From Gemmatimonadota bacterium (GTDB lineage Bacteria; Gemmatimonadota; Gemmatimonadetes; Palauibacterales; Palauibacteraceae), in NCBI GenBank assembly GCA_965116475.1, contig OZ220691.1, positions 3,556,670-3,620,669 of the forward strand: a stretch of 64,000 nucleotides of DNA, read 5' to 3'. Each line of letters begins with the position of its first letter. Position 1 is the stretch's first letter. The position numbers and the translations under genes were made by a program. A model generated the notes under the pieces. It was not told the origin of the DNA and ran no database searches. It saw only the letters and a list, made by a program, of their open reading frames with translations. This document shows, piece by piece, positions 1,871 through 20,749 of this stretch.

Positions 1871-2761
1871 ATGAGTTCCGGATTTCGTACCTACCACGAC
1901 GTGGACGAACTGCGTTCCGATCTCCCGGATCAGATCGCGGCCGGGGACGAGCGCGTGTCGGTGCGGCTCGCCTCCGTCGCGCGCGTCATCGCCGTGATGA
2001 GCGGCAAGGGCGGCGTGGGGAAGAGCCTCGTCTCCGCCCTCCTCGCGACCGCGCTTGCCCGCCGCGGGGATCGCGTGGGCCTCGTCGACGCGGACCTGAA
2101 CGGCCCCAGCGTGCCGCGCCTGCTCGGTGTCGAGCCGGGGCCTCTCGCCGAATCCCGGGACGGGTTCGCGCCGCCGTCCTCGCGCGCCGGGGTCCGCGTC
2201 ATGTCGATGGCGTTCCTCGTGGAGCCGGACCGCGCCCTCACATGGCGCGAGCCCGCCGACGCCGGCTTCGTGTGGCGGGGCGCCCAGGAGCGGGGGGCGC
2301 TGCGGGAATTCCTGTCGGATGTCGCGTGGGGGGAGCTGGATGTGCTCCTCGTGGACCTTCCGCCGGGCACCCAGCGGCTCGCCGAACTCCACGCGCTCGT
2401 CCCCGGACTCGCGGGCATCCTCGCGGTCACCATCCCGAGCGCGGCCTCCCGCGATGCCGTGGCCCGTTCGCTCGATCTCGCCCGGAGACGTGGTCTCCCC
2501 CTCCTGGGACTCGTGGAGAACCTGTCGGGGGTTCGCTGCGACGCCTGCGGAGGGCTCGCGCCTCTGCACGCCGGAGATGCCGGGGCGGAACTGGCGAAAC
2601 GCTTCCAGACCCGCCTGCTCGCCCGCCTCCCCTTCGACGCGGCGCTGGGGGCCGCGGCGGATGAGGGGCGGCTCGAGCGGTGGCTGGCCGACGGGGGCGG
2701 AACCGCCGTTGCGCTCCGGAGGATGGTCGACGCCCTTCGCGCGGCGCCCGTGACGCCATGA
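1871..2761 (+). CDS. Mrp/NBP35 (ApbC-like) P-loop ATPase, Fe-S carrier
   Basis: SGKGGVGKS Walker A, DADLNGPS, WRG, DLPPGT, VENLS..RCDAC. Confidence 0.92.
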   Translation: MSSGFRTYHDVDELRSDLPDQIAAGDERVSVRLASVARVIAVMSGKGGVGKSLVSALLATALARRGDRVGLVDADLNGPSVPRLLGVEPGPLAESRDGFAPPSSRAGVRVMSMAFLVEPDRALTWREPADAGFVWRGAQERGALREFLSDVAWGELDVLLVDLPPGTQRLAELHALVPGLAGILAVTIPSAASRDAVARSLDLARRRGLPLLGLVENLSGVRCDACGGLAPLHAGDAGAELAKRFQTRLLARLPFDAALGAAADEGRLERWLADGGGTAVALRRMVDALRAAPVTP

Positions 2762-3201
2762 AGTTCCTCTGCGTGGACTGCGATCGGCAGATGGCCTTCG
2801 ACGAGCGGGCCGTACCCGGCGACGGCACGATGGCCGCCGTGTTCCGGTGTCCCGCCTGCGGCCGCAAGACGGCGATGCTTGCGAACCCGATGGAGACGCA
2901 ACTCGTGAGTTCGCTCGGCGTGAAGGTGGGAGGCCGGACGGTACCGAACGAGAACTTCGAGGGCATTCGCGGCGGCGTGGCGGAGCCGCGCGACGAAGCC
3001 CTGTCCCAGCCCCCGTTGACGAAGCCCGGGCCTGTACGCTGGAACGTGGACGCGGTCGAGCGCCTGGGTCACGTCCCCTCCTTCGTGCGGGGGATGGTGA
3101 AGAAGATCTACAACGAATACGCCCTGGAGCGCGGGATCGAGGAGATGACGCCCGCCGTCATGGACCGGGCCCGGTCCGATCTCGGGCTGGAAGGGATGTA
3201 G
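2758..3201 (+). CDS. Zn-ribbon-like (CxxC...CxxC) protein with a C-terminal PCP_red-like domain
   Basis: ATGA overlap with the Mrp stop. CVDC and CPAC motifs; C-terminus WNVDAVERLGHVPSFVRGMVKKIYNEYALERGIEEMT. Confidence 0.8.
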   Translation: MKFLCVDCDRQMAFDERAVPGDGTMAAVFRCPACGRKTAMLANPMETQLVSSLGVKVGGRTVPNENFEGIRGGVAEPRDEALSQPPLTKPGPVRWNVDAVERLGHVPSFVRGMVKKIYNEYALERGIEEMTPAVMDRARSDLGLEGM

Positions 3202-3207
3202 GGGGCC

Positions 3208-3498
3208 GTGACGGACGGCGGTGAACGCGTGGGAGACCCGGGGGAAGGGATGGAGGTTCCGGACCCGTCCGTGGAGCGCGAGGTCCACGGACTCCGCGCC
3301 GTCATCGACCGCGACCTGTGCGTCGGCTTCGGAGACTGCATCGAGGAAGCGCCGGAGGCCTTCGATCTGGACGAGGATGGGGTGGCCGTGTTCACCGCAC
3401 CGGAGCATGCCTCGCGCAAGCGTTTCGTCGAGGCGTGCGCGTCCTGCCCGGTCGATGCGATTACCGTCCTCGAAGATGGGATTGAGATCGTTCCGTGA
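3208..3498 (+). CDS. Single-cluster ferredoxin, probably [3Fe-4S]
   Basis: IDRDLCVGFGDC...APEAF...CPVDAI; the second Cys position is Phe. Confidence 0.88.
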   Translation: MTDGGERVGDPGEGMEVPDPSVEREVHGLRAVIDRDLCVGFGDCIEEAPEAFDLDEDGVAVFTAPEHASRKRFVEACASCPVDAITVLEDGIEIVP

Positions 3499-4442
3499 AC
3501 GCCGGCTCCGGGCCGAAGCCGCCGCTGGTCACGGCGGAGGCGGTCTCCTGGGGCTACCCCGACGGGAGCCCGGCCCTCCGCGATCTCTCGCTCGAAGTCC
3601 GGCAGGGAGAACGCCTCGCGCTGCTCGGCCCGAACGGATCCGGCAAGTCGACCTTCCTCCGCCTCCTCGGCGGCGACGGCGCCCCGGGGATTCGCCGGGA
3701 CCCCACCGTCGACGATGCCCGACAGCGCTGGCTCGCCCCCGATCGGCCCGCCCTCCGCACATGGCTCAGCGGGCGCGAGAATGCGGCCGTCCTCCTCGAA
3801 CTCCACGGCGCCGGACCCGGTGAGGCCCGCGCCACGGCGGACGCGTGGCTCGCGCGCTTCGGGCTCGAGGCGGACGCGGACCGCCCCGCCGGCGCCTATT
3901 CGAGCGGCATGCGGAGGCGGCTTGCCCTCGCGACCGCATTCGGGGTCGCGGCCCCGCTCCTCCTTCTCGACGAACCGCTGGCCGGGCTCGACCCCGCCGG
4001 CCGGGCCGTCTTCGCCGAGGCCCTCGCCGACCACCGCGCCGCGGGTGGGACCGCGGTGCTATCCGCCCATGATCCGGCCTTCGCGGCGGCGCACTGCGAC
4101 CGCGTCGCATTCATCGTCGACGGCCGGTGCGCCGTCGCCGACACCCCGGCGCGGCTCCTGGAGCGCGTCGGCGTCCGTCCGCGCGTGGAGATCCGGTTTG
4201 CCGCCGGACAGAGTCCCGATCCGGACACCCTCGGCCCCGCCCCGGAGGAGGTGCGCACGACGACCCGGGACGAGAGCACCGTGATCCTCGAGGTCGAGGA
4301 TCCGAGCCGGGCCCTCCCCGAGACGCTGGCCTGGGTGCTGCGCGGCGGCGCCTCCGTCGCCTCCGTCGACGTCCGGGAACCGGATCTCGCGGACGCCTTC
4401 GCGCTGCTCACGGGCCGACGCCTGAAAGAGCGCGTCCGGTGA
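3495..4442 (+). CDS. ABC transporter ATP-binding protein
   Basis: GPNGSGKS Walker A, YSSGM signature, LLLDEP Walker B, H-loop. Confidence 0.92.
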   Translation: MNAGSGPKPPLVTAEAVSWGYPDGSPALRDLSLEVRQGERLALLGPNGSGKSTFLRLLGGDGAPGIRRDPTVDDARQRWLAPDRPALRTWLSGRENAAVLLELHGAGPGEARATADAWLARFGLEADADRPAGAYSSGMRRRLALATAFGVAAPLLLLDEPLAGLDPAGRAVFAEALADHRAAGGTAVLSAHDPAFAAAHCDRVAFIVDGRCAVADTPARLLERVGVRPRVEIRFAAGQSPDPDTLGPAPEEVRTTTRDESTVILEVEDPSRALPETLAWVLRGGASVASVDVREPDLADAFALLTGRRLKERVR

Positions 4443-5146
4443 CGATCGGGCGTCTGGCGTGGCGCTCGGCCCTCCGACGGCGGCGGTTGTTCCTGTGGAA
4501 CGTCGCCGTCCCCCTCCTCCTCCTCACGCCCGTCGCCCTCAGCGCCGCCGCGGCGCCCCACCGGGTCGCCGTCTTCGGCGTATTCATCGTCTTCTTCGGG
4601 GCCTTCGGCTCCTCCATCCCCGCCGTGCGCGACGCCCGCGACGGCTGGCTCGATGAGATCCTCCGCACCGGTTACTCCGCGCCCCGCTGGCTCCTCGAGC
4701 GCACGCTCGCCGGCACGACGCTTGACGCCCTCCAGCTCGCGCCCGCGCTTCTCGTGCTCCTGTGGTCGTCCGGCGGCGCCGGCGCGGCCCCCGCCGTGCT
4801 CCTGTCCGTCCTCGCGACGCTGTGGTTCGCGAACCTGCTCGGTCCGCTCGTGGCCGCTGCGGTGCGTTCGCTCGCCGAAGCGGCCCTCGCCTCCGCGGCG
4901 CTTTCCCTCCTTCTCCTGCACTTCGCGGGCTTCTTCCGGACCCCCGGTCCGGGCTGGACCTCCCTCGTCGCCGAGTGGAACCCGTACACGCCGCTTCGGG
5001 CCGCGCTCACGGCGGGCACGGGCGGGATGCCCATGGACGCTTCGGTCTGGCTGCGCAGCCTTCTCGTCGCGGCCGGTCTCACCTTCGGAGCCGCCGTTTT
5101 CGCCTCGGATTGGACCCGCCGCCTCCGCTGGCCGAGGACGCCGTAG
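4439..5146 (+). CDS. ABC-2-type transporter permease
   Basis: GTGA overlap with the ATPase gene, about 6 hydrophobic segments, WNPYT-like motif near the C-terminus. Confidence 0.8.
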   Translation: MTIGRLAWRSALRRRRLFLWNVAVPLLLLTPVALSAAAAPHRVAVFGVFIVFFGAFGSSIPAVRDARDGWLDEILRTGYSAPRWLLERTLAGTTLDALQLAPALLVLLWSSGGAGAAPAVLLSVLATLWFANLLGPLVAAAVRSLAEAALASAALSLLLLHFAGFFRTPGPGWTSLVAEWNPYTPLRAALTAGTGGMPMDASVWLRSLLVAAGLTFGAAVFASDWTRRLRWPRTP

Positions 5147-5405
5147 GGTGGTGTCTCGGAGGTCCCCGGCTATTCGAGCGCCGATGCCTCCGTCCCCGTT
5201 TGACTTTCCCTATGGGCAGCCGCACCTTCTTGGCGCATAAGCGGGGTTCCGGACCTTCCGGCAGCCCCGAAAACCGTGGACCAGCGTCGCCGAATTCCTC
5301 GTCCGTGGCCGATTTGCGCGGGCTGCGTACATCCGGGCTTCGCACCCGGGCGAGGTTGGTGCGAGCAGCGTGAACCGGCCGCAGCAAGCCGTCCAGCGGA
5401 GCGCC

Positions 5406-7694
5406 ATGTATCGAGAGGTATTCGTCCCGGTCGATAACTCGCGCGAGTCGGACTGGGCCGTGGACCGAGCCATCGAACTTTGCGCTCGCTCCGGTGGCCG
5501 CATCACCGGCTCCCACGTCTACGCCGCACGCCTCCACGACATCCGGTTCCGCCAGCTCGAGATCGGGCTCCCGGCCCAGTTCCAGGAGCCGGCGGAAATT
5601 CGCAGACAACGCAAGATCCACGACAAGCTGATCGAGAAGGGGCTTCAGCTCATCTCCGACAGCTTCCTCGACCAGCTCCACCGCCGTTGCGCCGAAGCCG
5701 GGGTGACCCTCACGCGGCAGCTCCTCGAGGGCATCAACTACGAGGAGATCATCAACGAGGCGAACCGCGGCGGCGGGCGCCTCCCGAGCCTCATCGGCTT
5801 CGATCCCAACATCGCCCACAACTACGACGGCAGCGAGAAGCAGCGCACGGACGTCAAGCTGGGCGAGGACGGCCGCCTGCTCGCCGAAGACGAAGAGCAG
5901 GAGGAAAAGCTCGCCGGCACCTCCGGCCGCGACTACGACCTCGTCACCATCGGCGCCCACGGCCTCGGGCGGCAGGAGCGGAGCCGCCTCGGCGGCGTCG
6001 TGGCGCGCGCGCTGCGCGGGATCGAGAAGGACGCGCTCATCATCCGCGACGACCGGCCGCTGGAGGGCGGAAAGTGGCTCGTCGGCGTGGACGGCTCGGC
6101 CTACGCCTACAAGGGCCTGCGGATCGCGCTCGACATGGCCCGCGAATACGGCGCCAAGGTCTACATCGCGAGCGCCTTCGACGTGCAGTACCACCACGTC
6201 GTCTTCCACAACATCAAGGACGTGCTCTCGGTCCAGGCCTCGAAGGTGTTCAAGTTCGAGGAACAGGAAGAGCTCCACAACAACATCATCGACAAGGGCC
6301 TGCTCCGCCTCTGCAAGGCGAACATCAAGCGGGCGGAGGTGATGGCGAGCGAGTATCCCGAGGTCGAGATCGAGACCCAGGTGCTCATCGGGAAGCCCTT
6401 CGACGCGCTCCTGAAGTGGGCCGACGAGATCGACCCTTCGCTGCTCGTCGTGGCCCGCCACGGCTCGCACCGCATCGAGGGCACGGACATCGGCTCGCAG
6501 GCCGACAACCTCGTCTCCCTCGCCGACACGAACATCCTGCTCATCGGGACGGGGAACGTCCGGCCCGAGGAGATCCCCTGGATCGAGGAGGATGGCGAAG
6601 CCGGGCTCGAGTGGGCGCCCGAAGCGGAGGTGAGGATCCTGCGCGTGCCGCCGTTCGCGCTGGGGATCGCGCGCAAGGCCGTCGAGGAGTTCGTCCTCGA
6701 GCACTACGGCCCGGGGAGCCGTTACGCGGCCGCCTTCGTACCAAACCCGAAGGATGAGAAGCAGTACCGGACCTCCCGGCCGGCGGACGGAAACGCTGCG
6801 GACGGAAACGCTGCGGACGGCAAAGCCGCGACCGGCAACGGGGCCAACGGCACGGCGCAGGTGGCGCGCGACGCCCTCGAGACCGGCGCGGCCCCGTCGA
6901 TCGCCGAGGTCGGACAGGCCGCCAACGGGCGCGCCAACGGAGAGAAGGCCGAACTCTGGAACCGCGACCAGTTGCCCGTCGTGACCAACGAACGCCTCGA
7001 CGAGGCGATCAAGAAGCTCCTTCCGACCCACATGCAGCTCGTGATGGGGATCGGCGATGCGGAGGAACTCGCTCTCGCCGAGGTGAAGGCGGACGAGGCG
7101 ATGAAGCGGACCGTCGTGGAGACGAGCGACGCCGACGCCTTCGAGGCCCCGCTCCCCGTCATGGCGAAGTGCCCGGTGACGGACAACCAGATCCCTCGCG
7201 ACCGCACGGCCGCCGACCCGATCGTCTGGACGCACGAGGCGTTCGACCGGCTGGGCCGCGTGCCGCTCATCGCCCGCCCCCTCGCGCGCAACACCGTGGA
7301 GCGCTTCGCCCGCGACCAGGGCATGTGGCGCGTGACGACGCTCGTGATGGATGAGAACAAGGACGCGATGATCGCGGCCGACGAGTTCGACCTCGACACG
7401 ATGCTCGTGATGTTCAACGAGTTGAAGGCGAAGCAGGCCCGGGCCGAAGCCGCCGGCGTCGACGGCATGAGCGAGGAGATGAAGCGCTTCATCGAGGAGG
7501 CCAAGGCCTCGGGCGTGACGCGCTGTCCGATCCGCGACATCGAGCAGCAGGCGGACGACTGTCCCGTCGACTTCAAGATGGTCTCGCCCGACGACGCCCG
7601 CGCGGCGGTAGAGAAGTTCGCGCGCACGGAACTGGGAGACGAGACGGGAGCGGACACCCCTCCCGCTTCGGAGCAGGGATCTCCCGCGAAGTGA
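5406..7694 (+). CDS. Tandem universal-stress-protein domains plus two PCP_red-like domains and three Cys-Pro motifs
   Basis: MYREVFVPVDNS and WLVGVDGS USP starts; DLVTIGAHG..LGGV and LLVVARHG..IGS USP motifs; C-terminal W..EA..R..VP repeats. Strong high-expression codon bias. Confidence 0.85.
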   Translation: MYREVFVPVDNSRESDWAVDRAIELCARSGGRITGSHVYAARLHDIRFRQLEIGLPAQFQEPAEIRRQRKIHDKLIEKGLQLISDSFLDQLHRRCAEAGVTLTRQLLEGINYEEIINEANRGGGRLPSLIGFDPNIAHNYDGSEKQRTDVKLGEDGRLLAEDEEQEEKLAGTSGRDYDLVTIGAHGLGRQERSRLGGVVARALRGIEKDALIIRDDRPLEGGKWLVGVDGSAYAYKGLRIALDMAREYGAKVYIASAFDVQYHHVVFHNIKDVLSVQASKVFKFEEQEELHNNIIDKGLLRLCKANIKRAEVMASEYPEVEIETQVLIGKPFDALLKWADEIDPSLLVVARHGSHRIEGTDIGSQADNLVSLADTNILLIGTGNVRPEEIPWIEEDGEAGLEWAPEAEVRILRVPPFALGIARKAVEEFVLEHYGPGSRYAAAFVPNPKDEKQYRTSRPADGNAADGNAADGKAATGNGANGTAQVARDALETGAAPSIAEVGQAANGRANGEKAELWNRDQLPVVTNERLDEAIKKLLPTHMQLVMGIGDAEELALAEVKADEAMKRTVVETSDADAFEAPLPVMAKCPVTDNQIPRDRTAADPIVWTHEAFDRLGRVPLIARPLARNTVERFARDQGMWRVTTLVMDENKDAMIAADEFDLDTMLVMFNELKAKQARAEAAGVDGMSEEMKRFIEEAKASGVTRCPIRDIEQQADDCPVDFKMVSPDDARAAVEKFARTELGDETGADTPPASEQGSPAK
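6783..6827 (+). repeat. In-frame 15-bp tandem repeat (GCGGACGGAAACGCT x2 plus one degenerate copy; ADGNA)
   Basis: Read directly from the sequence. Confidence 0.85.
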
Positions 7695-14076: not shown

Positions 14077-14106
14077 AGCAACGGTGAAGCAACGGTGAAG
14101 CAACGG
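14076..14106 (+). repeat. 11-bp direct repeat AAGCAACGGTG, about 2.8 copies
   Basis: Units at 14076, 14087 and 14098. Confidence 0.9.
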
Positions 14107-14160
14107 GTAAGGGCTCTCAACAGCCGATAGCGCAACAGCTTCTTGTACGGAGGTAAGTCA

Positions 14161-15021: not shown

Positions 15022-15027
15022 CTCCGG

Positions 15028-15068: not shown

Positions 15069-15121
15069 GCGTTGCCGTTCATCCGAAGGGCTCATCTGGC
15101 TCATCTGGAAGGAGATCGCTC

Positions 15122-15793
15122 GTGGATTGGGCGCTGCCCCCGAACTATTCGACATTCGGCGTCGTGATCGACCAGCTGTTCTGGATCATCCTCGTCATCA
15201 CCGGCATCGCGTTCCTCCTCGTGGAGGGCGGGATCGTCTGGTTCTGCGTCAAGTACCGGGGACGCGAAGGGGCGAGAGCGCACTACACGCACGGATCGAA
15301 CCGGCTGGAGATCATCTGGACGGTGATCCCCGCGATCATCATCGCGATCCTCGGCGCCTATTCGGCGGTCGTGTGGAACGACATCAAGGGAAGCTCCAAC
15401 CGTCCTGCCGACGCCCTCGAATTCCTCGTCGTCGGCAAGCAGTTCGAGTGGAACATCACCTACCCCGGAGTCGATGAGACGCTGGGGACGGGCGACGACT
15501 TCACGGTCCGCAACCAGTTCCATTTCCCGGTGAACGAGGACATCACGATCCTGCTCGAGTCCGAGGACGTGATCCACTCCTTCTTCATCCCCGAACTCCG
15601 CGTGAAGCAGGACGCGGTGCCGGGCATGACCATCCCGGTGTGGTTCGACGCGACCCAGACCGGGAACTTCGAGATCGCGTGCGCCGAGCTTTGTGGCCTG
15701 GGCCACTACTACATGATGGCGAGCGTGACCGTGCACAGCGCGGCGGACTTCGACGCCTGGCAGGCCAGCCAGGCGCCGGCCGCCGCCCAGTGA
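15122..15793 (+). CDS. coxB: Cytochrome c oxidase subunit II (CuA)
   Basis: AAGGAG RBS and GTG start; LEIIWT, QFEW, DVIHSF, CAELCGLGHYYM. Confidence 0.95.
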   Translation: MDWALPPNYSTFGVVIDQLFWIILVITGIAFLLVEGGIVWFCVKYRGREGARAHYTHGSNRLEIIWTVIPAIIIAILGAYSAVVWNDIKGSSNRPADALEFLVVGKQFEWNITYPGVDETLGTGDDFTVRNQFHFPVNEDITILLESEDVIHSFFIPELRVKQDAVPGMTIPVWFDATQTGNFEIACAELCGLGHYYMMASVTVHSAADFDAWQASQAPAAAQ

Positions 15794-15808
15794 TCGAGAA
15801 AGGCTGAT

Positions 15809-17575
15809 ATGGCGACGATCGTAGCGGAGGCGACCGGGCAGGCGATCCTGCACGAGGAGCACGAGCAGTCCTTCCTGCGCAAGTACATCTTCTCGACCGA
15901 CCACAAGGTCATCGCGATCCAGTTCCTGATCTACACGCTGTTCTTCCTCATGATCGGCGGACTGCTGGCGATGCTCATGAGGTACCAGATCGCGTGGCCG
16001 GCGCGGGGCGAGCTGCCGCTGGGCGGGATCTTCCCCGAGAGCATGGTCGCGAGCGGGTACATCCTGCCGGAGTTCTACAATGCGCTCGTCACGATGCACG
16101 GCTCGGTGATGGTCTTCCTCGCCATCATGCCGATGCTCGTGGGCGTGTGGGCGAACTACCTCATCCCGCTCCAGCTGGGCACGCACGACATGGCGTTCCC
16201 GCGGCTCAACATGCTCTCCTTCTGGGCCATGGTGCCCGCGGGCATCCTCACGCTGGCGAGTTTCTTCGTCGTCGGAGGCGCGGCGGGGGCCGGCTGGACG
16301 CTGTACGCGCCGCTGAGCGCCCGCCCCGACCTGTCCGGCGTCGGACTCGGGCAGATCCTGTGGCTGGCCGCGCTCGTCTTCATCGGGCTCTCATCGATTC
16401 TCGGATCGGTGAACTACATCACCACGACGATCAACATGCGCGCCCCGGGCATGACCTGGATGCGCATGCCGCTCACCATCTGGTCGCTGTTCATCACGGC
16501 CATCCTCGCGCTGCTTGCGATGCCCGTCCTGTCGGCGGCCGGGATCATGCTCATCTTCGACCAGACCATCGGGACGAGCTTCTTCCTCCCGGAGGGCGGG
16601 GGACAGCCGCTCCTCTGGCAGCACCTGTTCTGGTTCTTCGGCCACCCGGAGGTCTACATCCTCATCCTCCCGGCCATGGGCTTCACCTCCGAGATCCTCT
16701 CCGTGGGTTCGCGGAAGCCGGTGTTCGGCTACAAGGCGATGGTCCTGGCGCTCGTCTCGATCGCCTTCCTCGGGTTCATCGTGTGGGGTCACCACATGTT
16801 CCAGAGCGGGATGAACCCGATGCTGGGACTCACGTTCACGGTCTCGACGCTCTTCATCGCCGTGCCCTCGGCGATCAAGACGTTCAACTGGATGGGCACG
16901 ATGTGGCGCGGGAACCTCCAGCTCCACTCGGCGATGCTGTTCGCGATCGGGTTCGTGGCGATGTTCGCGATCGGAGGCCTGTCGGGCGTCTTCATGGCCT
17001 CGACGCCGGTCGACATCTACATCCACGACACGTACTTCATCGTGGCGCACATCCACTACGTGCTCTTCGGCGGAAGCCTCTTCGCGCTCTTCGGGGCGAT
17101 CTACTTCTGGTATCCGAAGATGTTCGGACGGATGATGAACGAGACGCTGGGCAAGATCCATTTCTGGCTCACGTTCGTCTTCTTCAACCTGGTCTTCTTC
17201 CCGATGCACGGCGTGGGGATGGTGGGGATGATGCGGCGCATCTACGACTCCACCGGCTACGCGCACCTGCAGGGGATCGAGGACACGAACGCGCTCATCA
17301 CGTGGTCGGCGTTCGGGCTCTTCGCATCCGGCTTCCTGTTCGCGTTCAACTTCTTCTGGAGCCTGAAGAAGGGGAGGAAGGCCGAGGCGAATCCGTGGAA
17401 CGCGACGACGCTGGAGTGGCAGACGCCCTCGCCGCCGAAGCACGGCAACTGGGAGGAAGTCCCGGTCGTCTACCACGGTCCGCACGAGTACAGCCACCCG
17501 GATGTGGAGGACAAGGACTGGCTGGCGCAGAACGAACGGCCGGATGTCGTGAGCCCGGCCGCCGGCAGCCACTAA
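15809..17575 (+). CDS. coxA: Cytochrome c oxidase subunit I, A1 type
   Basis: STDHK, TMHG, WFFGHPEVY, WGHHMF, HDTYFIVAHIHY, MMRR. Confidence 0.98.
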   Translation: MATIVAEATGQAILHEEHEQSFLRKYIFSTDHKVIAIQFLIYTLFFLMIGGLLAMLMRYQIAWPARGELPLGGIFPESMVASGYILPEFYNALVTMHGSVMVFLAIMPMLVGVWANYLIPLQLGTHDMAFPRLNMLSFWAMVPAGILTLASFFVVGGAAGAGWTLYAPLSARPDLSGVGLGQILWLAALVFIGLSSILGSVNYITTTINMRAPGMTWMRMPLTIWSLFITAILALLAMPVLSAAGIMLIFDQTIGTSFFLPEGGGQPLLWQHLFWFFGHPEVYILILPAMGFTSEILSVGSRKPVFGYKAMVLALVSIAFLGFIVWGHHMFQSGMNPMLGLTFTVSTLFIAVPSAIKTFNWMGTMWRGNLQLHSAMLFAIGFVAMFAIGGLSGVFMASTPVDIYIHDTYFIVAHIHYVLFGGSLFALFGAIYFWYPKMFGRMMNETLGKIHFWLTFVFFNLVFFPMHGVGMVGMMRRIYDSTGYAHLQGIEDTNALITWSAFGLFASGFLFAFNFFWSLKKGRKAEANPWNATTLEWQTPSPPKHGNWEEVPVVYHGPHEYSHPDVEDKDWLAQNERPDVVSPAAGSH

Positions 17576-17599
17576 ATCGCATGGAAGGGAACTGACGAG

Positions 17600-18214
17600 A
17601 TGGCACACGCCGCGACCGCAGGCCGGGTCCCCGAGAGAGGGCTCGATGTCTACACCCAGAAGGTGGGCATGTGGGTGTTTCTGTGCTCGGAGGTGATGTT
17701 CTTCGCGGGCCTCATCGGCTCGTACGTGGTGCTCCGTTTCGGGGCATCCGATACCTGGGCGGAGCCGAACGAGGTACTGGCGGTCCCCATCACCGCGTTC
17801 AACACCTTCCTCCTCATCTGCAGTTCGGTGACGATGGTGAAGGCCTTCGCGGCCGCGCAGATGGGAGACCAGAAGGGGATCAAGCTCTGGCTCCTGTCGA
17901 CGACGATCCTCGGAGCCACCTTCCTGGGCGTGCAGGTGTTCGAGTACACCGAACTCGTGCTGCACCAGTCGTGGCAGGGGAGCCACGGGTTCACGCCGGC
18001 GTCCGGGCTGTACGGGGCCACCTTCTACACGATGACGGGCTTCCACGGCTTCCACGTCCTCCTCGGTGTGATCTGCCTCGCCTGGGCCACGATCCGCGCC
18101 TGGCGGGGCCACTGGGGCGCGGACAACACCCACGGGATCGAGGTGCTCGGCCTCTACTGGCACTTCGTCGACCTCGTGTGGATCATCCTGTTCACGATCG
18201 TCTACCTCATCTAG
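17600..18214 (+). CDS. coxC: Cytochrome c oxidase subunit III
   Basis: GMWVFLCSEVMFF, TGFHGFHV, LYWHFVDLVWI. Confidence 0.96.
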   Translation: MAHAATAGRVPERGLDVYTQKVGMWVFLCSEVMFFAGLIGSYVVLRFGASDTWAEPNEVLAVPITAFNTFLLICSSVTMVKAFAAAQMGDQKGIKLWLLSTTILGATFLGVQVFEYTELVLHQSWQGSHGFTPASGLYGATFYTMTGFHGFHVLLGVICLAWATIRAWRGHWGADNTHGIEVLGLYWHFVDLVWIILFTIVYLI

Positions 18215-18257
18215 CCAGACACCTGGGGCTGTTGGCCGAGAGATACGGAGCGAACGA

Positions 18258-18563
18258 ATGAGTGAAGCCGGAGGACACGCGGCGGGCGCCGCGGACGATC
18301 ACGGGCACGAGCACCCGAAGTACATGCTCATCTGGCTGTACCTGGCCATCCTCACGGCCCTCGAGGTGGGGGTGGTCTACCTCGATATTCCGAAGTGGAT
18401 GATCGTTACGTCGCTGCTCATCATGGCGGGGTGGAAGGCGCTGCTCGTCGCGCTCTACTACATGCACCTGAAGTTCGAACCCAACCGTTTGCGGCTGGTG
18501 GCGCTGGCGCCGCTTCCGGCCGTGGCCATCATGATCATCGCGATCATGATGGAGTACGTGTAG
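18258..18563 (+). CDS. Cytochrome c oxidase subunit IV (CtaF/CyoD-like)
   Basis: Y..IW..L.ILT..EV, KA.LV..YYMHLKFE. Confidence 0.9.
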   Translation: MSEAGGHAAGAADDHGHEHPKYMLIWLYLAILTALEVGVVYLDIPKWMIVTSLLIMAGWKALLVALYYMHLKFEPNRLRLVALAPLPAVAIMIIAIMMEYV

Positions 18564-18576
18564 GCGCGACCCCGTC

Positions 18577-19500
18577 GTGGAGGCCGGAACGCTGCTCAAG
18601 ACGCGCGGAGTCCCGCGCGCGGGGATCTCGAGACGGGTGCGCTCGCTGCGGGCGACGCTTCCCGCATACGTCGAACTGACGAAGCCACGCATTACGGCGC
18701 TCGTCGTCGCGAGCGCGGCCGCCGGCTTCCTTCTTGGCGCGGCGAGTTTCGACTTCGCCCTCTTCGCGCAGGCCATGGCCGGCGTGGCGCTCGTCGCCTC
18801 CGGGACGAGCGCGATGAACCAGGTGCTGGAACGGGATGTGGACGCGCTCATGGGGCGCACGCGCGCGCGGCCGCTGCCGGCCGGCCGGATCGCGACGCCG
18901 CCGGCCGCGGTCGTCTCCGGGGTTCTGGCCGCGGCGGGGATCGTCTGGCTGTGGATCGCGGTCAATCCGATCACGGCGGGACTCGCGCTCGCCACGTTCG
19001 TCTCCTACGACTTCGTCTACACGCCGCTCAAGCGCGTCCACTCCCTCTCCACCATCGTGGGCGCAGTGCCCGGGGCGCTGCCGATTCTCGGGGGCTGGAC
19101 CGCCGCCACCGGGCAGTTCGGTCCCGGCGGATGGGCGCTGTTCGCGATCCTCTTCGTCTGGCAACTGCCACATTTTCTCGCCCTCGCGTGGCTGCTCCGC
19201 GACGACTACCAGGCCGCGGGGCTTCGCATGCTCTCCGTCGGCGACTTCGAGGGCCGCCGGACGCGTCACCAGGCGCTGCTCTACGCGCTCACTTTGATCC
19301 CGGTGAGTCTCCTCCCGAGCGTTCTCGGCCTCACGGGCGTCGTCTACTTCGCGGTCGCGCTCGGACTCGGGGGGTGCTTCCTGTGGACCGCGCTCCGGTT
19401 CGCCCGCTCCGCGACGCCGGCGCACGCCCGGGGTTTGTTCCGGGCCTCGATCCTGTATCTTCCACTGCTGATGGCCGTGCTCGTCCTCGACAAGCTGTAG
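18577..19500 (+). CDS. cyoE: Protoheme IX farnesyltransferase (heme o synthase)
   Basis: LTKPRI, NQVLERDVDALMGRTRARPLP, YTPLKR, WQLPHF. Confidence 0.96.
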   Translation: MEAGTLLKTRGVPRAGISRRVRSLRATLPAYVELTKPRITALVVASAAAGFLLGAASFDFALFAQAMAGVALVASGTSAMNQVLERDVDALMGRTRARPLPAGRIATPPAAVVSGVLAAAGIVWLWIAVNPITAGLALATFVSYDFVYTPLKRVHSLSTIVGAVPGALPILGGWTAATGQFGPGGWALFAILFVWQLPHFLALAWLLRDDYQAAGLRMLSVGDFEGRRTRHQALLYALTLIPVSLLPSVLGLTGVVYFAVALGLGGCFLWTALRFARSATPAHARGLFRASILYLPLLMAVLVLDKL

Positions 19501-19505
19501 CAGCC

Positions 19506-19748
19506 GTGCCGAACACTCTCGCCGTCCTCGCGGCGGCCCCGCAGATGCAGCATACGCCGGACGAACAGGCGGGATTCCTCCTGATGTTCGTGTTCATGGC
19601 GGCGATGCCCTACCTGCTGCTCGTCGTCATCGGGGGCGGGATCTTCCGGGCGCGCCGCCGGCAGCGCCAGCGGGAGGTCGAGAGAGCGCTGGAGGAACAG
19701 CGCGAATGGGAGGCGGCCCGCGCCGTCGACCCGGACTCCGCGTGCTGA
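19506..19748 (+). CDS. Small single-TM protein
   Basis: GTG 5 nt after cyoE; FLLMFVFMAAMPYLLLVVIGGGIF followed by a charged helix. The start is uncertain. Confidence 0.65.
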   Translation: MPNTLAVLAAAPQMQHTPDEQAGFLLMFVFMAAMPYLLLVVIGGGIFRARRRQRQREVERALEEQREWEAARAVDPDSAC

Positions 19749-19794
19749 GCCCATGCTGACTCCGATGTTGACCCCATGCTGAGCCCATGCTGAC
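19743..19794 (+). repeat. Degenerate 11-12-bp tandem repeat TGCTGA(G/C)CCCA, about 4.5 copies
   Basis: Units at 19743, 19754, 19766, 19777 and 19788; spans the upstream stop codon and the downstream ATG. Confidence 0.8.
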
Positions 19795-20749
19795 GCTGAG
19801 GCGGAGGATCCGGGCCGGGCTCGTCGGAGGGCTGCTGGGCGGTTTCGTCCTCGCGGTGCTCTTCTACTTCTACGATCTCGGGCAGGGGACGCCGCTCCAG
19901 ACCCCCGCCTTCCTCTGGGGGGCCATCATCAGCCGTGCCGAGGTCGAAGCGTCCGCCGGCGTCATCGTGGGGTTCACGTTCATCCACTTCACGGCCTGGG
20001 CCGGGCTCGGGATGCTGGCCGCGGCGCTCGTTCAGTGGGCGGGCCTCCCGCGCAACGTGTTCATCGGCGCGCTTTACGGGCTCTTCGTGTGTTCCCTCGT
20101 GTTCTACGTCGGACTCATCCGGGCGCCCGCCGGACTCGTGATCTCCGCGCCGGGATGGCCGGCGGTCTTCTTCGGGAACGCGCTCGCCGGGGTCGTGATG
20201 TTCACTCACATGCACTGGGTGAGTTCGGAGCCCGGCATCGTGGGGATGATGAACTTCCTCCAGACGCACAGGGTCACGCGCCACGGCATCTACGCGGGGC
20301 TCCTCGGCGCCCTCGTCGTCGCGCTCTGGTTCCTCATCATCGACACCATGCTCCGGCAGCCGCTCTATACGCCGGCAGCGCTGGCGACCGTCCTCTTCCG
20401 CGGTGCCCCCACGCCGGCCGCGGTCGAGATCTCCCTCGCGCCCGTCCTCGGATACACGCTCGCCCACTTCGCCTTCTTCGTGCTGTTCGGCGTCGCGGTG
20501 TCCGGCCTCGCGCGACAGGTGTCCAGGTTCCCGCCCCTGGCCCTCGGCATCATCGTGCTGTTCGTCATCTTCGAGGTCTTCTTCATCGCCATGGTCGCGA
20601 TGCTGGGCGGCTGGATCCTCGAGGAACTCGCCTGGTGGTCGATTCTGGTCGGGAACGTTTTCGCGGCGCTCGTCATGGGCGGATACCTCTGGAAGGTCTA
20701 CCCGGAGTTCGCGGAGAGTCTCACGGCGGAGAGCCTTTGGGCGGACTGA
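19787..20749 (+). CDS. Polytopic membrane protein made of two homologous halves
   Basis: The pattern G..AGLLG....A..F...D....PL.TPA.L...G.T..HF...GN..A..M occurs twice. Confidence 0.8.
   Translation: MLTLRRRIRAGLVGGLLGGFVLAVLFYFYDLGQGTPLQTPAFLWGAIISRAEVEASAGVIVGFTFIHFTAWAGLGMLAAALVQWAGLPRNVFIGALYGLFVCSLVFYVGLIRAPAGLVISAPGWPAVFFGNALAGVVMFTHMHWVSSEPGIVGMMNFLQTHRVTRHGIYAGLLGALVVALWFLIIDTMLRQPLYTPAALATVLFRGAPTPAAVEISLAPVLGYTLAHFAFFVLFGVAVSGLARQVSRFPPLALGIIVLFVIFEVFFIAMVAMLGGWILEELAWWSILVGNVFAALVMGGYLWKVYPEFAESLTAESLWAD

What the first reader, a model, noticed from the sequence alone, without database searches (positions are those of the whole stretch)
1871..20749. Candidate undescribed respiratory module: bd-like protein plus cytochrome c chain with its own maturation genes, joined to an A1 oxidase operon
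Seen: about 19 kb of co-directional, mostly overlapping genes: Mrp, Zn-ribbon/PCP_red, ferredoxin, ABC pair, USP/PCP_red, radical SAM/PCP_red, CydA-like, three membrane cytochromes (5 CxxCH in total plus a DOMON-like domain), cupredoxin lipoprotein, coxBAC-IV, cyoE. The window has no cydB, Rieske/cytochrome b, ACIII subunits or molybdo-enzyme. Known: CuA oxidases need a cytochrome c donor, and uncharacterised bd-like proteins with c-cytochromes have been described in Nitrospira-type organisms. Inference: the module is either a cytochrome-c-fed second terminal reductase (O2/NO) or an unrecognised membrane electron conduit feeding the A1 oxidase, and its cofactor is made or inserted by the upstream genes.
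Basis: partly seen in the sequence, partly recalled or inferred. Interest (0 to 1): 0.85.

Follow-up and report, generated by a model that had tools for sequence, protein, structure and literature searches.

The report
Bd-like cytochrome complex beside aa3 oxidase
A marine Gemmatimonadota bacterium carries, next to its ordinary oxygen-respiring enzyme, an uncharacterised membrane cytochrome complex already noticed in nitrite-oxidising and anammox bacteria, and haem-handling genes sit beside that complex in many phyla.

Summary
Window 1871-20749 holds 18 co-directional genes, and five successive junctions overlap by 4 bp. One correction: haem o synthase is 18577-19500, and 19787-20749 is an unassigned membrane protein.

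The core is not undescribed. It comprises a 14-helix CydA-like protein, three c-type cytochromes and a cupredoxin. It is orthologous to kustd1709-1713 of the anammox NXR cluster, to the 'bd-like_3/alt_NxrC_2' cluster of Nitrospira, and to 'TO_1'. It fits the 'OR-N' family. Its function has never been measured.

New here:
- PCP_red-domain proteins lie beside the core in 33 of 35 fully flanked loci. An AhbD/NirJ-like radical SAM enzyme and an Mrp each do so in 18 of 35.
- The neighbours of the core change with the clade: aa3 oxidase in Gemmatimonadota, ActA-ActB-ActE without ActC/D/F in Acidobacteriota, NXR in anammox and Nitrospinota.
- In 52 Palauibacterales genomes the orphan CydA always comes with PCP_red. 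It coexists with ACIII and never occurs with cbb3.

Best reading (0.45): a terminal reductase fed by cupredoxin or cytochrome c, working in parallel with aa3 and supplied with haem by a dedicated O2-independent route. Main rival (0.30): a quinol:cupredoxin/cytochrome c conduit.

The parts
889..1533 (-). HmuY-like (haem-binding family) protein with an N-terminal anchor helix. It is divergent from the array. Its membership in the system is tentative.
   Evidence: PF14064 E 3.9e-15, 56.7 bits. GC3 0.87, and tblastn matches in 9 Gemmatimonadota loci near the module.
1871..2761 (+). Mrp/NUBPL-type P-loop Fe-S cluster carrier
   Evidence: PF10609 E 4.5e-62. MrpORP 213 bits, below the 450 cut-off. 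The same family is in 18 of 35 fully flanked loci.
2758..3201 (+). Small Zn-ribbon (2 x CxxC) + PCP_red protein
   Evidence: PF08369 E 2e-11 and Zn_ribbon_4. Small PCP_red proteins are in 19 of 35 fully flanked loci.
3250..3498 (+). Single-cluster 4Fe-4S ferredoxin (alternative start 3208)
   Evidence: Fer4_13 E 2.4e-10. tblastn matches in 13 of the 16 Gemmatimonadota loci and in no other locus.
3495..4442 (+). ABC transporter ATPase
   Evidence: PF00005. Best NCBIfam hits are DrrA and CcmA, both below cut-off. Found only in the Palauibacter-like loci, L016 and one opposite-strand hit in L063.
4439..5146 (+). ABC-2 type permease
   Evidence: PF01061 E 8.5e-11.
5406..7694 (+). Cytoplasmic protein with two USP and two PCP_red domains (alternative start 5370)
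   Evidence: Usp E 2e-28 and PCP_red E 2e-14. Second PCP_red copy at residues 413-445. This family is in 30 of 35 fully flanked loci. The Kuenenia-locus counterpart is L021:17542-18879, where the published table lists uspA kustd1706.
7691..9103 (+). Radical SAM/SPASM enzyme of the AhbD/NirJ2 kind with a C-terminal PCP_red domain
   Evidence: Radical_SAM, SPASM and PCP_red. AhbD 270.2 bits and NirJ2 269.8 bits, both below the 500 cut-offs. CxxxCxxC motif read. The C-terminus matches the ChlB C-terminus 2xdq_B, E 2.6e-6.
9100..10872 (+). CydA-like 14-helix membrane protein (bd-like, OR-N type)
   Evidence: PF01654 76.8 bits. AlphaFold2 model pLDDT 89.5, pTM 0.87, 14 long helices. Best fold matches are CydA chains, E 1.8e-9. 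Conserved H57, E144 and H225.
10869..11705 (+). c1: dihaem c-type cytochrome with an N-terminal anchor helix
   Evidence: CxxCH at residues 60 and 182. Natural CydA-like::c1 fusion P0122, 33% identity, E 4e-35.
11702..12499 (+). c2: monohaem c-type cytochrome with three membrane helices
   Evidence: CxxCH at residue 165. Three hydrophobic segments. Predicted complex with the CydA-like protein scores 0.77 against a best control of 0.00.
12496..14076 (+). c3: signal peptide, dihaem cytochrome c, NxrC/EbdC-like EB_dh domain, C-terminal anchor helix
   Evidence: CxxCH x 2. N-terminal half matches 6h5l_B, E 2.1e-48. The family profile matches NxrC 7b04_C at 1.7e-28 and EbdC 2ivf_C at 9.2e-21.
14161..15021 (+). 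Lipoprotein with a cupredoxin (type-1 Cu) domain and a CarboxypepD_reg-like beta-sandwich
   Evidence: H151, C189 and H192 are invariant and M195 is present in 42 of 43 family members. 33% identical, E 4e-41, to the gene upstream of the CydA-like gene in the Kuenenia locus.
15070..15793 (+). coxB, with a CuA site and no fused cytochrome c. The start is approximate; the ORF opens at 14951 inside the previous gene.
   Evidence: TIGR02866 175.4 bits, above the 147.7 cut-off. CAELCGLGHYYM read.
15809..17575 (+). coxA, an A-family haem-copper oxidase subunit I with a GHPEV motif
   Evidence: PF00115 507 bits. TIGR02891 654.1 bits against a cut-off of 670.75.
17600..18214 (+). coxC
   Evidence: PF00510 E 2.1e-25.
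18258..18563 (+). Oxidase subunit IV
   Evidence: PF03626 E 7.3e-17. TIGR02229 above cut-off.
18577..19500 (+). Haem o synthase (cyoE/ctaB)
   Evidence: TIGR01473 279.3 bits, above the 210.3 cut-off.
19787..20749 (+). Unassigned membrane protein, eight long helices in the model. It follows ctaB in Gemmatimonadota loci.
   Evidence: No Pfam or NCBIfam hit. ORF family in 8 loci. Model pLDDT 71.7. 0 fold matches at E <= 0.001.

Best explanation
Genes 9100-15021 encode a membrane cytochrome complex of the uncharacterised 'bd-like' (OR-N / TO_1 / kustd1709-1713) kind. It consists of a 14-helix CydA-like haem protein, three membrane-anchored c-type cytochromes carrying five c haems (one of them also has an NxrC-like domain), and a lipoprotein cupredoxin as its mobile partner.

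Most likely mechanism (inferred). Electrons from the periplasmic cupredoxin or cytochrome c pool, which ACIII encoded elsewhere keeps reduced, enter through the c haems. They pass to a b558-like haem (His225, perhaps with His377) and then to a haem at His57 near the outer face. There a small oxidant, most likely O2, is reduced with protons brought from the cytoplasm past Glu144, Glu75 and His167. On this reading the complex is a second terminal reductase sharing the cupredoxin with the adjacent A1-type aa3 oxidase. It would fill the place that cbb3 or canonical bd fills in related genomes.

The upstream genes are most likely an O2-independent haem supply line for this haem-rich island. The AhbD-like radical SAM enzyme would carry out the coprohaem-to-haem b step. 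Mrp would load its Fe-S clusters, the ferredoxin would reduce it, and the PCP_red domains on three proteins would hold or hand over the tetrapyrrole.

Shown: gene content, orthology, conserved neighbourhood, conserved residues, natural gene fusions and a predicted CydA-like/c2 interface. Inferred: the direction of electron flow, the substrate and the chemistry of the radical SAM enzyme.
For: Identity of the core:
- The same gene order CydA-like, c1, c2, c3 is found in loci from Gemmatimonadota, Planctomycetota (Kuenenia, Brocadia, Jettenia), Nitrospinota, Acidobacteriota, NC10 and others. In 35 loci with at least 9 kb on both sides, c1 is present in 34, c2 in 33 and c3 in 35.
- The Kuenenia locus matches the published kustd1709-1713 gene list.

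Physical complex:
- 3 of 14 long homologues scanned are CydA-like proteins with C-terminal cytochrome c domains. In P0122 that part aligns to the whole of c1 (E 4e-35).
- c2 and c3 are fused in the NC10 locus.
- The predicted CydA-like + c2 complex scores 0.77 against a best control of 0.00 among 3 controls. That mark was reached by 116 of 157 solved complexes and 2 of 215 mismatched pairs. The runs agree in at least 78% of contacts and the partner's pLDDT is at least 80. My own alignments were used, so these counts hold only roughly.
- In Kuenenia the orthologues are expressed and membrane-bound, and the cupredoxin is largely soluble.

Reductase reading:
- His57, Glu144 and His225 align with His19, Glu107 and His186 of solved CydA (residue roles recalled) and are nearly invariant in 54 sequences.
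- His377 and His526 are also conserved and fall in outer-face loops. Glu75, Glu144 and His167 fall in the inner half of the membrane. This is my reading of the helices together with the positive-inside rule.
- In 52 Palauibacterales genomes the 23 with orphan CydA have ACIII ActD in 21 and cbb3 ccoN in 0, against 17 of 29 others with ccoN. Canonical CydB is in 1 of the 23.
- Specialists on the bd family class OR-N as probable cytochrome c-fed O2 reductases.

Haem supply:
- A PCP_red ORF lies beside the core in 33 of 35 fully flanked loci, the radical SAM enzyme in 18 and Mrp in 18.
- The USP/PCP_red family lies beside the core under 12 of 17 named taxon labels, the radical SAM family under 10 of 17.
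- All 23 orphan-CydA genomes have PCP_red, against 2 of 29 others.
- hemC and a HmuY-like gene lie upstream in the window.
- hemH and a HemY-like oxidase lie directly upstream in 3 Acidobacteriota loci.
- AhbD is known as the O2-independent coprohaem decarboxylase and also occurs in organisms that lack the other Ahb enzymes.
Against: - No activity has ever been measured for any member of this family.
- The residue at the Glu99 position of canonical CydA is a nearly invariant Tyr (Tyr137), so the active site is not that of a bd oxidase.
- In about 17-19 Acidobacteriota-type loci the core follows ActA-ActB-ActE with overlapping genes, and no ActC/D/F is seen. This is hard to explain unless the CydA-like protein itself deals with quinol.
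- In the window the module, the cupredoxin and an aa3 oxidase whose CoxB lacks a cytochrome c domain read naturally as one chain from quinol to O2.
- Strictly anaerobic anammox bacteria keep and express the module beside NXR.
- The Nitrospira literature favours a role in reverse electron flow for this paralogue and names another paralogue as the oxidase.
- The genome-table associations are not corrected for shared ancestry. The tree shows that each gene context belongs to one clade, so the contexts count as about three events.
- The radical SAM enzyme scores below the AhbD and NirJ2 cut-offs. It is absent within 10 kb in all 7 fully flanked anammox loci.
- The PCP_red domain has no conserved His, Cys, Met or Tyr that could ligate haem iron.
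Confidence: 0.45

Rival explanations
1. [quoted passage not shown] The CydA-like protein would oxidise quinol at a new site made by its extra helices. It would pass electrons through its b haem(s) and the five c haems to the cupredoxin, which would reduce CuA of the adjacent aa3 oxidase. In nitrite oxidisers and anammox bacteria the same module would run the other way or anchor NXR.
For: - Acidobacteriota-type loci place ActA (6f0k_A, E 6.3e-72), ActB (6f0k_B, E 1.5e-287) and ActE (6f0k_E, E 3.2e-55) directly before the CydA-like gene, with overlapping stops and starts.
- No NrfD-like ActC/F or ActD was found among 53 further large ORFs of 7 such loci, nor as an ORF family present in 8 or more loci.
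- A convergent coxB follows in several of these loci.
- In all 8 fully flanked Gemmatimonadota loci the module, the cupredoxin (7 of 8) and coxBA form one array.
- In the Palauibacterales table coxA K02274 goes with orphan CydA (20 of 23 against 2 of 29).
- CoxB has no cytochrome c domain.
- Anaerobic anammox bacteria express the module.
- Lücker 2013 and Mundinger 2019 propose an ACIII-like or reverse-flow role.
Against: - ACIII (ActD) is present in 21 of 23 orphan-CydA Palauibacterales genomes, so a quinol:cytochrome c route already exists there.
- The Q-loop is missing, and with it the quinol-binding residues of CydA; no substitute site is known.
- The strict conservation of the His19 and Glu107 equivalents, and of polar residues in the inner half of the membrane, is left unexplained.
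- The absence of cbb3 from every genome with the module fits a terminal oxidase better.
Confidence: 0.3
2. The radical SAM/PCP_red, USP/PCP_red, Zn-ribbon/PCP_red and Mrp proteins make and insert a modified haem special to the bd-like active site, for example an O2-independent route to a d-type or otherwise trimmed haem. On this reading they do not simply make ordinary haem b.
For: - The enzyme is equally close to AhbD and NirJ2 (270.2 and 269.8 bits) and below both cut-offs, so it forms a family of its own.
- Its PCP_red fusion occurs in clusters from Gemmatimonadota, Nitrospinota and Acidobacteriota, phyla that also have module loci.
- The linkage to the core holds across 10 of 17 named taxon labels and through rearranged gene orders.
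- In Nitrospinota it sits inside the NXR/bd-like cluster directly before the CydA-like gene.
- In Palauibacterales, K22227 is in 22 of 23 orphan-CydA genomes.
Against: - HemY-like and HemH genes flank the module in 3 Acidobacteriota loci.
- The orphan-CydA genomes of that table mostly have HemY and HemH, and none has ChdC. This leaves the plain coprohaem decarboxylase step vacant for exactly such an enzyme.
- The anammox loci lack the enzyme within 10 kb.
- There is no chemical evidence of any kind.
Confidence: 0.15
3. The USP/PCP_red and Zn-ribbon/PCP_red proteins are regulatory or cytoplasmic accessory subunits of the complex, for instance nucleotide-sensing. On this reading they have nothing to do with haem, and PCP_red is a docking domain.
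For: - USP domains are common nucleotide-binding regulators (established knowledge).
- USP/PCP_red is the most constant neighbour (30 of 35 fully flanked loci). It stays in the anammox loci where the radical SAM enzyme and Mrp are missing.
- PCP_red has no conserved haem-ligating residue.
Against: - The same small domain is fused to a tetrapyrrole-type radical SAM enzyme.
- In DPOR this domain is part of the subunit that holds the tetrapyrrole substrate (recalled).
- Haem-synthesis genes recur nearby.
Confidence: 0.15

Closest known systems
The bd-like/cytochrome c/alt-NxrC gene cluster next to nitrite oxidoreductase: kustd1709-1713 (+ uspA kustd1706) in Kuenenia, and bd-like_3 + alt_NxrC_2 + two cytochromes c in Nitrospira and Nitrospina
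   Same: - Same proteins in the same order: cupredoxin, CydA-like, dihaem, monohaem, dihaem + EB_dh. A USP/PCP_red protein lies nearby.
- The CydA-like protein is 47% identical to that of the Kuenenia locus and 55% to that of the Nitrospinota locus.
- The cupredoxin is 33% identical to the Kuenenia-locus one.
- Sources.
   Different: - There is no NXR here. The module is joined to an aa3 oxidase operon, and ACIII is encoded elsewhere in related genomes.
- The radical SAM enzyme, Mrp, ferredoxin and ABC pair lie directly upstream.
- In the c3 protein the Lys haem-ligand position of NxrC/EbdC is not kept.
OR-N (N1/N2) family of the cytochrome bd superfamily (Murali, Gennis, Hemp preprint) and 'TO_1' of Ca. 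Manganitrophus (Yu and Leadbetter preprint)
   Same: - 14 helices, no quinol-binding loop, the His19 equivalent conserved, often no second CydA-like gene.
- Operon with two cytochromes c and a 'periplasmic cytochrome b'.
- Sources.
   Different: - I could not run the authors' classifier or see their supplements, so the subfamily (N1 or N2) is not assigned.
- Those papers do not mention radical SAM: 0 occurrences.
Canonical cytochrome bd quinol oxidase CydAB
   Same: - The fold of the first five helices (Foldseek E 1.8e-9, TM-score 0.5-0.58 normalised to the target; profile E 5.3e-18 to 5doq_A).
- Equivalents of His19, Glu107 and His186.
   Different: - No CydB.
- No Q-loop.
- Five more helices.
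- Tyr in place of Glu99.
- Partners are c-type cytochromes and a cupredoxin.
Alternative complex III (ActABCDEF)
   Same: It may work alike, as a multihaem, membrane-bound link between the membrane and periplasmic carriers, encoded next to a cytochrome oxidase. In Acidobacteriota loci ActA, ActB and ActE are encoded directly before the module.
   Different: The window has no Act subunit. The membrane subunit is CydA-like, not NrfD-like.
AhbD (haem b synthase) and NirJ/NirJ2 radical SAM enzymes
   Same: Radical SAM core with CxxxCxxC plus a SPASM domain. These are the best NCBIfam hits, each covering the full model length.
   Different: Scores are 270 bits against cut-offs of 500. There is an extra C-terminal PCP_red domain. 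The enzyme is encoded with other PCP_red proteins beside a respiratory complex.

Membership tests
Canonical cytochrome bd quinol oxidase (CydAB, qOR) | Subunit I matches the CydA family over its whole length, including the Q-loop region | tested here: not met
   PF01654 passes its cut-off (76.8 bits), but alignments to solved CydA cover only about residues 53-290 (TM1-5). Nothing matches the Q-loop.
Canonical cytochrome bd quinol oxidase (CydAB, qOR) | A CydB partner | tested here: not met
   No PF02322 in any scanned ORF of the window. In the Palauibacterales table CydB is in 6 of 52 genomes and in 1 of the 23 with orphan CydA. The window's own genome outside the window was not seen.
Canonical cytochrome bd quinol oxidase (CydAB, qOR) | Haem ligands and channel residues His19, Glu99, Glu107, His186 (E. 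coli numbering, recalled) | tested here: inconclusive
   His57, Glu144 and His225 are kept and nearly invariant. The Glu99 position is Tyr137. The Met393 equivalent cannot be aligned.
OR-N bd-like family / TO_1 / NXR-cluster bd-like module | 14 membrane helices and no quinol-binding loop | tested here: met
   The AlphaFold2 model (pLDDT 89.5) has 14 long helices. Compare the descriptions.
OR-N bd-like family / TO_1 / NXR-cluster bd-like module | Operon with two membrane c-type cytochromes and an NxrC-like (EB_dh) cytochrome | tested here: met
   c1, c2 and c3 follow with 4-bp overlaps. The c3 family profile matches NxrC 7b04_C at E 1.7e-28.
OR-N bd-like family / TO_1 / NXR-cluster bd-like module | Orthology to the members in anammox bacteria and Nitrospinota | tested here: met
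   47-55% identity with conserved gene order in L021-L042 and L053. The Gemmatimonadota sequences form one supported clade inside the family tree.
OR-N bd-like family / TO_1 / NXR-cluster bd-like module | Assignment by the authors' subfamily HMMs (N1 versus N2) | not testable with these tools
   The preprint's supplements are closed and the journal version is not held.
Alternative complex III | ActB Fe-S subunit and NrfD-like ActC/ActF | tested here: not met
   None among the window ORFs. ActABE occur only in related Acidobacteriota-type loci.
A1-type haem-copper cytochrome c oxidase (aa3) | CoxA with the GHPEV glutamate, CoxB with CuA, CoxC, subunit IV, haem o synthase | tested here: met
   PF00115 507 bits, CoxB TIGR02866 and ctaB TIGR01473 above their cut-offs, motifs read (motif meaning recalled). 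CoxA TIGR02891 scores 654.1 against a cut-off of 670.75. No haem a synthase gene was found in the window.
AhbD / NirJ2 tetrapyrrole radical SAM enzymes | Score above the equivalog cut-off | tested here: not met
   270.2 and 269.8 bits against 500. The core motif and the SPASM domain are present.
Cytochrome c maturation systems (Ccm or CcsBA) | CcmA-F/H or CcsB/CcsA | tested here: not met
   The only match is an ABC ATPase with CcmA at 98.2 bits, below the 131.6 cut-off. The permease is ABC-2, with no CcmB/C/E/F or ResB/CcsA domain.
Type-1 copper cupredoxin | His ... Cys-x2-His-x2-Met ligand set (recalled) | tested here: met
   H151, C189 and H192 are invariant and M195 is present in 42 of 43 family members. 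No Pfam cupredoxin model hits; only the C-terminal beta-sandwich is recognised.

The most novel reading that the evidence does not exclude
The PCP_red proteins, the AhbD/NirJ-like radical SAM enzyme and Mrp form a previously unrecognised, O2-independent system. It would build and insert a special (non-b) haem into the catalytic site of bd-like complexes. These complexes would be a widespread third kind of terminal reductase fed by cytochrome c or cupredoxin, used from sponge symbionts to nitrite oxidisers and anammox bacteria.
Probability: 0.12. Interest if true: 0.85.

Novelty: new member of a known kind. Interest (0 to 1): 0.5.

Why it matters
This bd-like module is among the most strongly transcribed gene sets of Nitrospira. 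It is conserved in anammox bacteria and Nitrospinota, organisms that drive global nitrite turnover. Nobody knows what it does.

Three findings give concrete handles on that question:
- The module occurs without NXR, wired to an aa3 oxidase in Gemmatimonadota and to ActABE in Acidobacteriota.
- A haem-type radical SAM enzyme and PCP_red proteins accompany it across phyla.
- It is complementary to cbb3 in one order of bacteria.

Practical consequences:
- The cofactor can be sought by co-expressing the accessory genes.
- The function can be studied in aerobic heterotrophs instead of slow-growing autotrophs.
- The current annotation 'cytochrome ubiquinol oxidase subunit I' should not be used to infer a bd quinol oxidase in metabolic reconstructions.

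Tried and rejected
- Canonical bd oxidase: rejected. There is no CydB and no Q-loop, and only TM1-5 align.
- Cytochrome c maturation role for the upstream genes: rejected.
- 'The module is needed because the genome has no complex III': rejected for this order, since ActD is present in 46 of 52 genomes.
- FNR/CRP-type box (pattern recalled): 8 matches with up to 2 mismatches against 4.1 +/- 2.1 expected, none in an intergenic gap of the array.
- Promoter and terminator scan: 0 promoter-like sites, and 5 terminator-like sites against 6.5 expected. None lies in the gaps 5146-5406, 14076-14161 or 19500-19787, so operon limits stay open.
- Was 19787-20749 a haem a synthase? No family hit. The model is moderate (pLDDT 71.7) and 0 fold matches reach E <= 0.001.
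- Haem b ligands of the c3 EB_dh domain. The EbdC Met108 column is Met in 13 of 31 sequences (in the window: yes). The Lys201 column is Arg in 15, Lys in 6 and Ser in the window. So haem b binding is not settled. An earlier reading that placed the Met ligand at Gln374 was an alignment-counting slip, corrected.
- Literature linking bd-like proteins with radical SAM, NirJ, AhbD or PCP_red: nothing found. Most subscription papers are not in the library. These include de Almeida 2011 and 2016, Kartal 2013 and the journal version of Murali 2021 (not held).
- The closed collections metagenome contigs and viral contigs were not searched.

Full report
WHAT IS THERE

The window is about 70% G+C. It comes from a Gram-negative genome with BamA, Skp and LpxD/A/B further along. 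The nearest relatives of its CydA-like protein are from Candidatus Palauibacter, phylum Gemmatimonadota: 93-94% identity among named proteins, and 98% to a Ca. P. denitrificans MAG locus.

Codon-position G+C, ORF tables and translations, together with Pfam and NCBIfam scans, give this + strand array:
- Mrp/NUBPL, 1871-2761.
- Zn-ribbon + PCP_red, 2758-3201.
- Ferredoxin, 3250-3498.
- ABC ATPase, 3495-4442.
- ABC-2 permease, 4439-5146.
- A gap, then a protein with two USP and two PCP_red domains, 5406-7694.
- Radical SAM/SPASM/PCP_red, 7691-9103.
- CydA-like, 9100-10872.
- c1, two CxxCH and one anchor helix, 10869-11705.
- c2, one CxxCH and three helices, 11702-12499.
- c3, signal peptide, two CxxCH, EB_dh domain and C-terminal anchor, 12496-14076.
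- Cupredoxin lipoprotein, 14161-15021.
- coxB, coxA, coxC, subunit IV and haem o synthase, up to 19500.
- An unassigned membrane protein, 19787-20749.

Five successive junctions from the USP protein to c3 overlap by 4 bp. A tRNA-Pro on the other strand at 21407-21482 closes the array. hemC (3-899) and a HmuY-like gene on the minus strand (889-1533) precede it.

No cydB, Rieske/cytochrome b, ACIII or molybdoenzyme domain was seen in the 58 window ORFs scanned.

THE CORE IS A KNOWN BUT UNCHARACTERISED MODULE

The CydA-like protein matches solved CydA chains only over its first five helices (phmmer E 3.1e-8, family profile E 5.3e-18 to 5doq_A).

An AlphaFold2 model built on 54 sequences is confident (pLDDT 89.5, pTM 0.87) and has 14 long helices. 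Its best fold matches are CydA chains, at partial TM-scores.

The family is large. There are 235 clusters at 50% identity with E <= 1e-30.

tblastn with the window's proteins, and an all-against-all clustering of 5275 ORFs from these loci, show the order CydA-like, c1, c2, c3 almost everywhere. Among 35 loci with at least 9 kb on both sides, c1 is present in 34, c2 in 33 and c3 in 35. The c1 ORF family also caught some ORFs overlapping the CydA-like gene, so its count is an upper bound.

The anammox loci carry, in order, cupredoxin, CydA-like, dihaem, monohaem, dihaem + EB_dh, tetrahaem, a further cytochrome c, USP/PCP_red, then NxrC and NxrB. This is the published kustd1713-to-kustd1703 gene list (gene table passages of PMC6423088; passages of PMC8387239).

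The literature I read in passages describes the same set:
- Lücker et al. 2013 (PMC3578206) found it conserved in Kuenenia, Nitrospira and Nitrospina. They list an alternative NxrC, mono- and dihaem cytochromes c, a zinc-finger protein, cupredoxins, and a 14-helix bd-like protein without the Q-loop. They call its function enigmatic and raise the possibility that it acts like an alternative complex III.
- Mundinger et al. 2019 (PMC6606698) place bd-like_3 + alt_NxrC_2 + two cytochromes c among the 40 most transcribed genes of N. moscoviensis. They suggest reverse electron flow.
- Yu and Leadbetter (preprint) call the same composition TO_1 and treat it as an oxidase.
- Murali, Gennis and Hemp (preprint) class 14-helix, Q-loop-less CydA homologues as OR-N1/N2, probable O2 reductases with other electron donors.
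- A Nitrospinota survey (PMC10839748) repeats this view and stresses that no experiment exists.
- In Kuenenia the products of kustd1705-1712 are found in the membrane fraction, and kustd1713 is a mostly soluble blue copper protein (PMC11897245).

So 'undescribed' does not hold for the core.

IT IS A PHYSICAL COMPLEX

- Three of 14 longer homologues scanned are CydA-like proteins with C-terminal cytochrome c domains. In P0122 the added part aligns with all of c1 (33% identity, E 4e-35).
- In the NC10 locus c2 and c3 are one protein.
- A complex prediction for CydA-like + c2, each given as an alignment, scored 0.77 in the median of three runs, against 0.00 for the best of three controls. That mark was reached by 116 of 157 solved complexes and 2 of 215 mismatched pairs. 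The runs agree in at least 78% of contacts and the partner's pLDDT is at least 80. My own alignments were used, so the counts hold only roughly.
- The predicted interface joins helices 7-8 and the conserved outer loop 357-380 of the CydA-like protein (which holds His377) to the c2 helices and c2 residues 112-120. These lie next to the invariant Arg118 and His121. This supports binding; it does not show it.

CONSERVED RESIDUES

In 54 sequences the following are invariant or nearly so: Arg47, His57, Glu75, Tyr137, Glu144, His167, His225, Arg226, His377, Arg409 and His526.

By the alignments to solved CydA, His57 is the His19 equivalent, Glu144 is the Glu107 equivalent and His225 is the His186 equivalent. 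Tyr137 stands where Glu99 is (residue roles recalled).

From the helices and the positive-inside rule I infer two things. His57, His225, His377 and His526 lie at or near the outer face. Glu75, Glu144 and His167 lie in the inner half of the membrane. This resembles a kept multi-haem site fed with protons from the cytoplasm.

The cupredoxin family keeps His151, Cys189 and His192 in 43 of 43 members and Met195 in 42.

In c3 the N-terminal half matches a solved Kuenenia dihaem cytochrome (6h5l_B, E 2.1e-48). The EB_dh domain matches NxrC and EbdC. The EbdC Met108 column is Met in only 13 of 31 sequences, including the window's. The Lys201 column is mostly Arg. So the label 'periplasmic cytochrome b' is not secure for the whole family.

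THE ACCESSORY GENES GO WITH THE CORE

A PCP_red profile built from the window's copies found 111 ORFs in the loci. Among the 35 fully flanked loci:
- 33 hold at least one PCP_red ORF.
- 30 hold the USP/PCP_red protein.
- 19 hold a small PCP_red protein.
- 18 hold the radical SAM/PCP_red enzyme.
- 18 hold Mrp.

The gene order differs between phyla: upstream in Gemmatimonadota and NC10, downstream in Acidobacteriota, and split in Nitrospinota. Over all 80 loci, USP/PCP_red lies beside the core under 12 of 17 named taxon labels and the radical SAM enzyme under 10 of 17. The 7 fully flanked anammox loci have USP/PCP_red but no radical SAM enzyme or Mrp within 10 kb.

The ferredoxin is matched only in Gemmatimonadota loci (13 of 16). 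The ABC pair is found only in the Palauibacter-like loci and L016, apart from one opposite-strand ATPase hit in L063.

An independent check comes from supplementary file 10 of the Palauibacterales paper (PMC10469786; rows read; numbers typed into). Of 52 genomes, 23 have more CydA than CydB ('orphan CydA'):
- PCP_red is in 23 of those 23, against 2 of the other 29.
- K22227 ('AhbD') is in 22 of 23, against 5 of 29.
- ActD of ACIII is in 21 of 23, against 25 of 29.
- cbb3 ccoN is in 0 of 23, against 17 of 29.
- coxA K02274 is in 20 of 23, against 2 of 29.
- ChdC is in 3 of 52.
- Rieske bc1 is in 1 of 52.

The Fisher values (8.5e-13 for PCP_red, 2.7e-6 for ccoN) are not corrected for ancestry. 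They may reflect only a few gains or losses.

I found no paper that links bd-like proteins with radical SAM, NirJ, AhbD or PCP_red.

WHAT THE ACCESSORY GENES DO

- The radical SAM enzyme has the CxxxCxxC core and a SPASM domain. It scores 270 bits with both AhbD and NirJ2, below their 500-bit cut-offs.
- Its C-terminal 58 residues match the C-terminus of ChlB (2xdq_B, E 2.6e-6).
- Clusters with this three-domain architecture come from Gemmatimonadota, Nitrospinota and Acidobacteriota. USP/PCP_red clusters also come from Nitrospirota and Pseudomonadota.
- AhbD is the O2-independent coprohaem decarboxylase. It also occurs in organisms that lack the other Ahb enzymes (review PMC13564367, passages).
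- hemH and a HemY-like oxidase sit directly upstream of the module in 3 Acidobacteriota loci: L036, L051 and L063.
- The orphan-CydA genomes of the Palauibacterales table mostly have HemY and HemH, and none has ChdC.

The simplest reading is therefore a dedicated, O2-independent last step of haem b synthesis and hand-over. The PCP_red domain would act as a tetrapyrrole-holding or docking module. Its consensus keeps Trp, Arg, Pro, Arg and Glu but no iron ligand. A special haem remains possible but has no direct support.

WHAT THE CORE DOES

The gene context changes with the clade of the CydA-like tree:
- aa3 oxidase in Gemmatimonadota (8 of 8 fully flanked loci).
- NXR in the Planctomycetota/Nitrospinota clade.
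- ActA-ActB-ActE in the Acidobacteriota clade. These match 6f0k chains A, B and E at E 6.3e-72, 1.5e-287 and 3.2e-55. ActB is present in 19 of the 80 loci. No ActC/D/F was found among 53 further large ORFs of 7 such loci.
- A PQQ dehydrogenase in NC10.

For a terminal reductase speak:
- the kept haem-site and channel residues;
- the coexistence with ACIII;
- the complete complementarity with cbb3 in Palauibacterales;
- the judgement of bd specialists.

For a quinol:carrier conduit speak:
- the ActABE hybrids;
- the self-contained order module, cupredoxin, aa3 in the window;
- the presence of the module in anammox bacteria;
- the Nitrospira literature.

I put the reductase reading at 0.45 and the conduit at 0.30. 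Only an activity measurement or a structure will decide.

VERDICT

The finding is real and correctly anatomised. It is a new member, in a new gene context, of a known and still unexplained kind of respiratory module.

The added value of this analysis lies in four points:
- the cross-phylum link to an AhbD-like radical SAM enzyme and PCP_red proteins;
- the ActABE hybrid operons;
- the fusion and complex-prediction evidence for the subunit composition;
- the genome-table evidence that the module coexists with ACIII and replaces cbb3.

Noticed in passing
window 889-1533 (-): HmuY-like (haem-binding family) protein with an N-terminal anchor helix, lying between hemC and the array. It is conserved at the same place in 9 Gemmatimonadota loci. 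It could be a periplasmic haem handler for the module.
   Followed up: partly
window 19787-20749 (+): 320-aa membrane protein after ctaB with no family hit and eight long helices in a moderate model. It has no significant fold match and is not recognisably a haem a synthase. No ctaA was found in the window.
   Followed up: partly
L051:5454-11623 and about 17-19 further Acidobacteriota-type loci: ActA-ActB-ActE of alternative complex III are encoded directly before the CydA-like gene with overlapping stops and starts, and no ActC/D/F is seen. This looks like a hybrid ACIII/bd-like operon.
   Followed up: partly
window 12496-14076; alignment A3: In the NxrC-like domain of c3 the EbdC Met108 column is Met in 13 of 31 sequences, and the Lys201 column is mostly Arg. 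The usual label 'periplasmic cytochrome b' may not hold for much of the family.
   Followed up: partly
window 35853-37411 (+), 35462-35537 (+), 37420-38433 (+): A complete 16S rRNA gene is preceded by tRNA-His and followed 9 bases later by an Era-type GTPase ORF instead of a spacer and 23S rRNA. This is an unlinked rRNA gene.
   Followed up: no
window 21494-24742 (+): 1082-aa fusion of an MFS/TLC-like transporter, HEAT repeats and a cyclic-nucleotide-binding domain. It is followed by a response regulator and a histidine kinase.
   Followed up: no
L018:593-2380 and 3544-4449: In the NC10 locus a PQQ-dependent dehydrogenase and two small cytochromes c lie upstream of the accessory genes and the module. 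This is another periplasmic electron source next to it.
   Followed up: no
window 28391-34260 (-): Histidine utilisation genes: an amidohydrolase, urocanase and an aromatic amino acid lyase. The last two ORFs carry N-terminal extensions of about 150 residues before the domain match.
   Followed up: no
window 45558-49670 and 61266-62837 (+): McsA-like UVR protein, McsB-type guanido kinase and ClpC, plus the bacillithiol gene bshC, in a genome with outer-membrane biogenesis genes.
   Followed up: no
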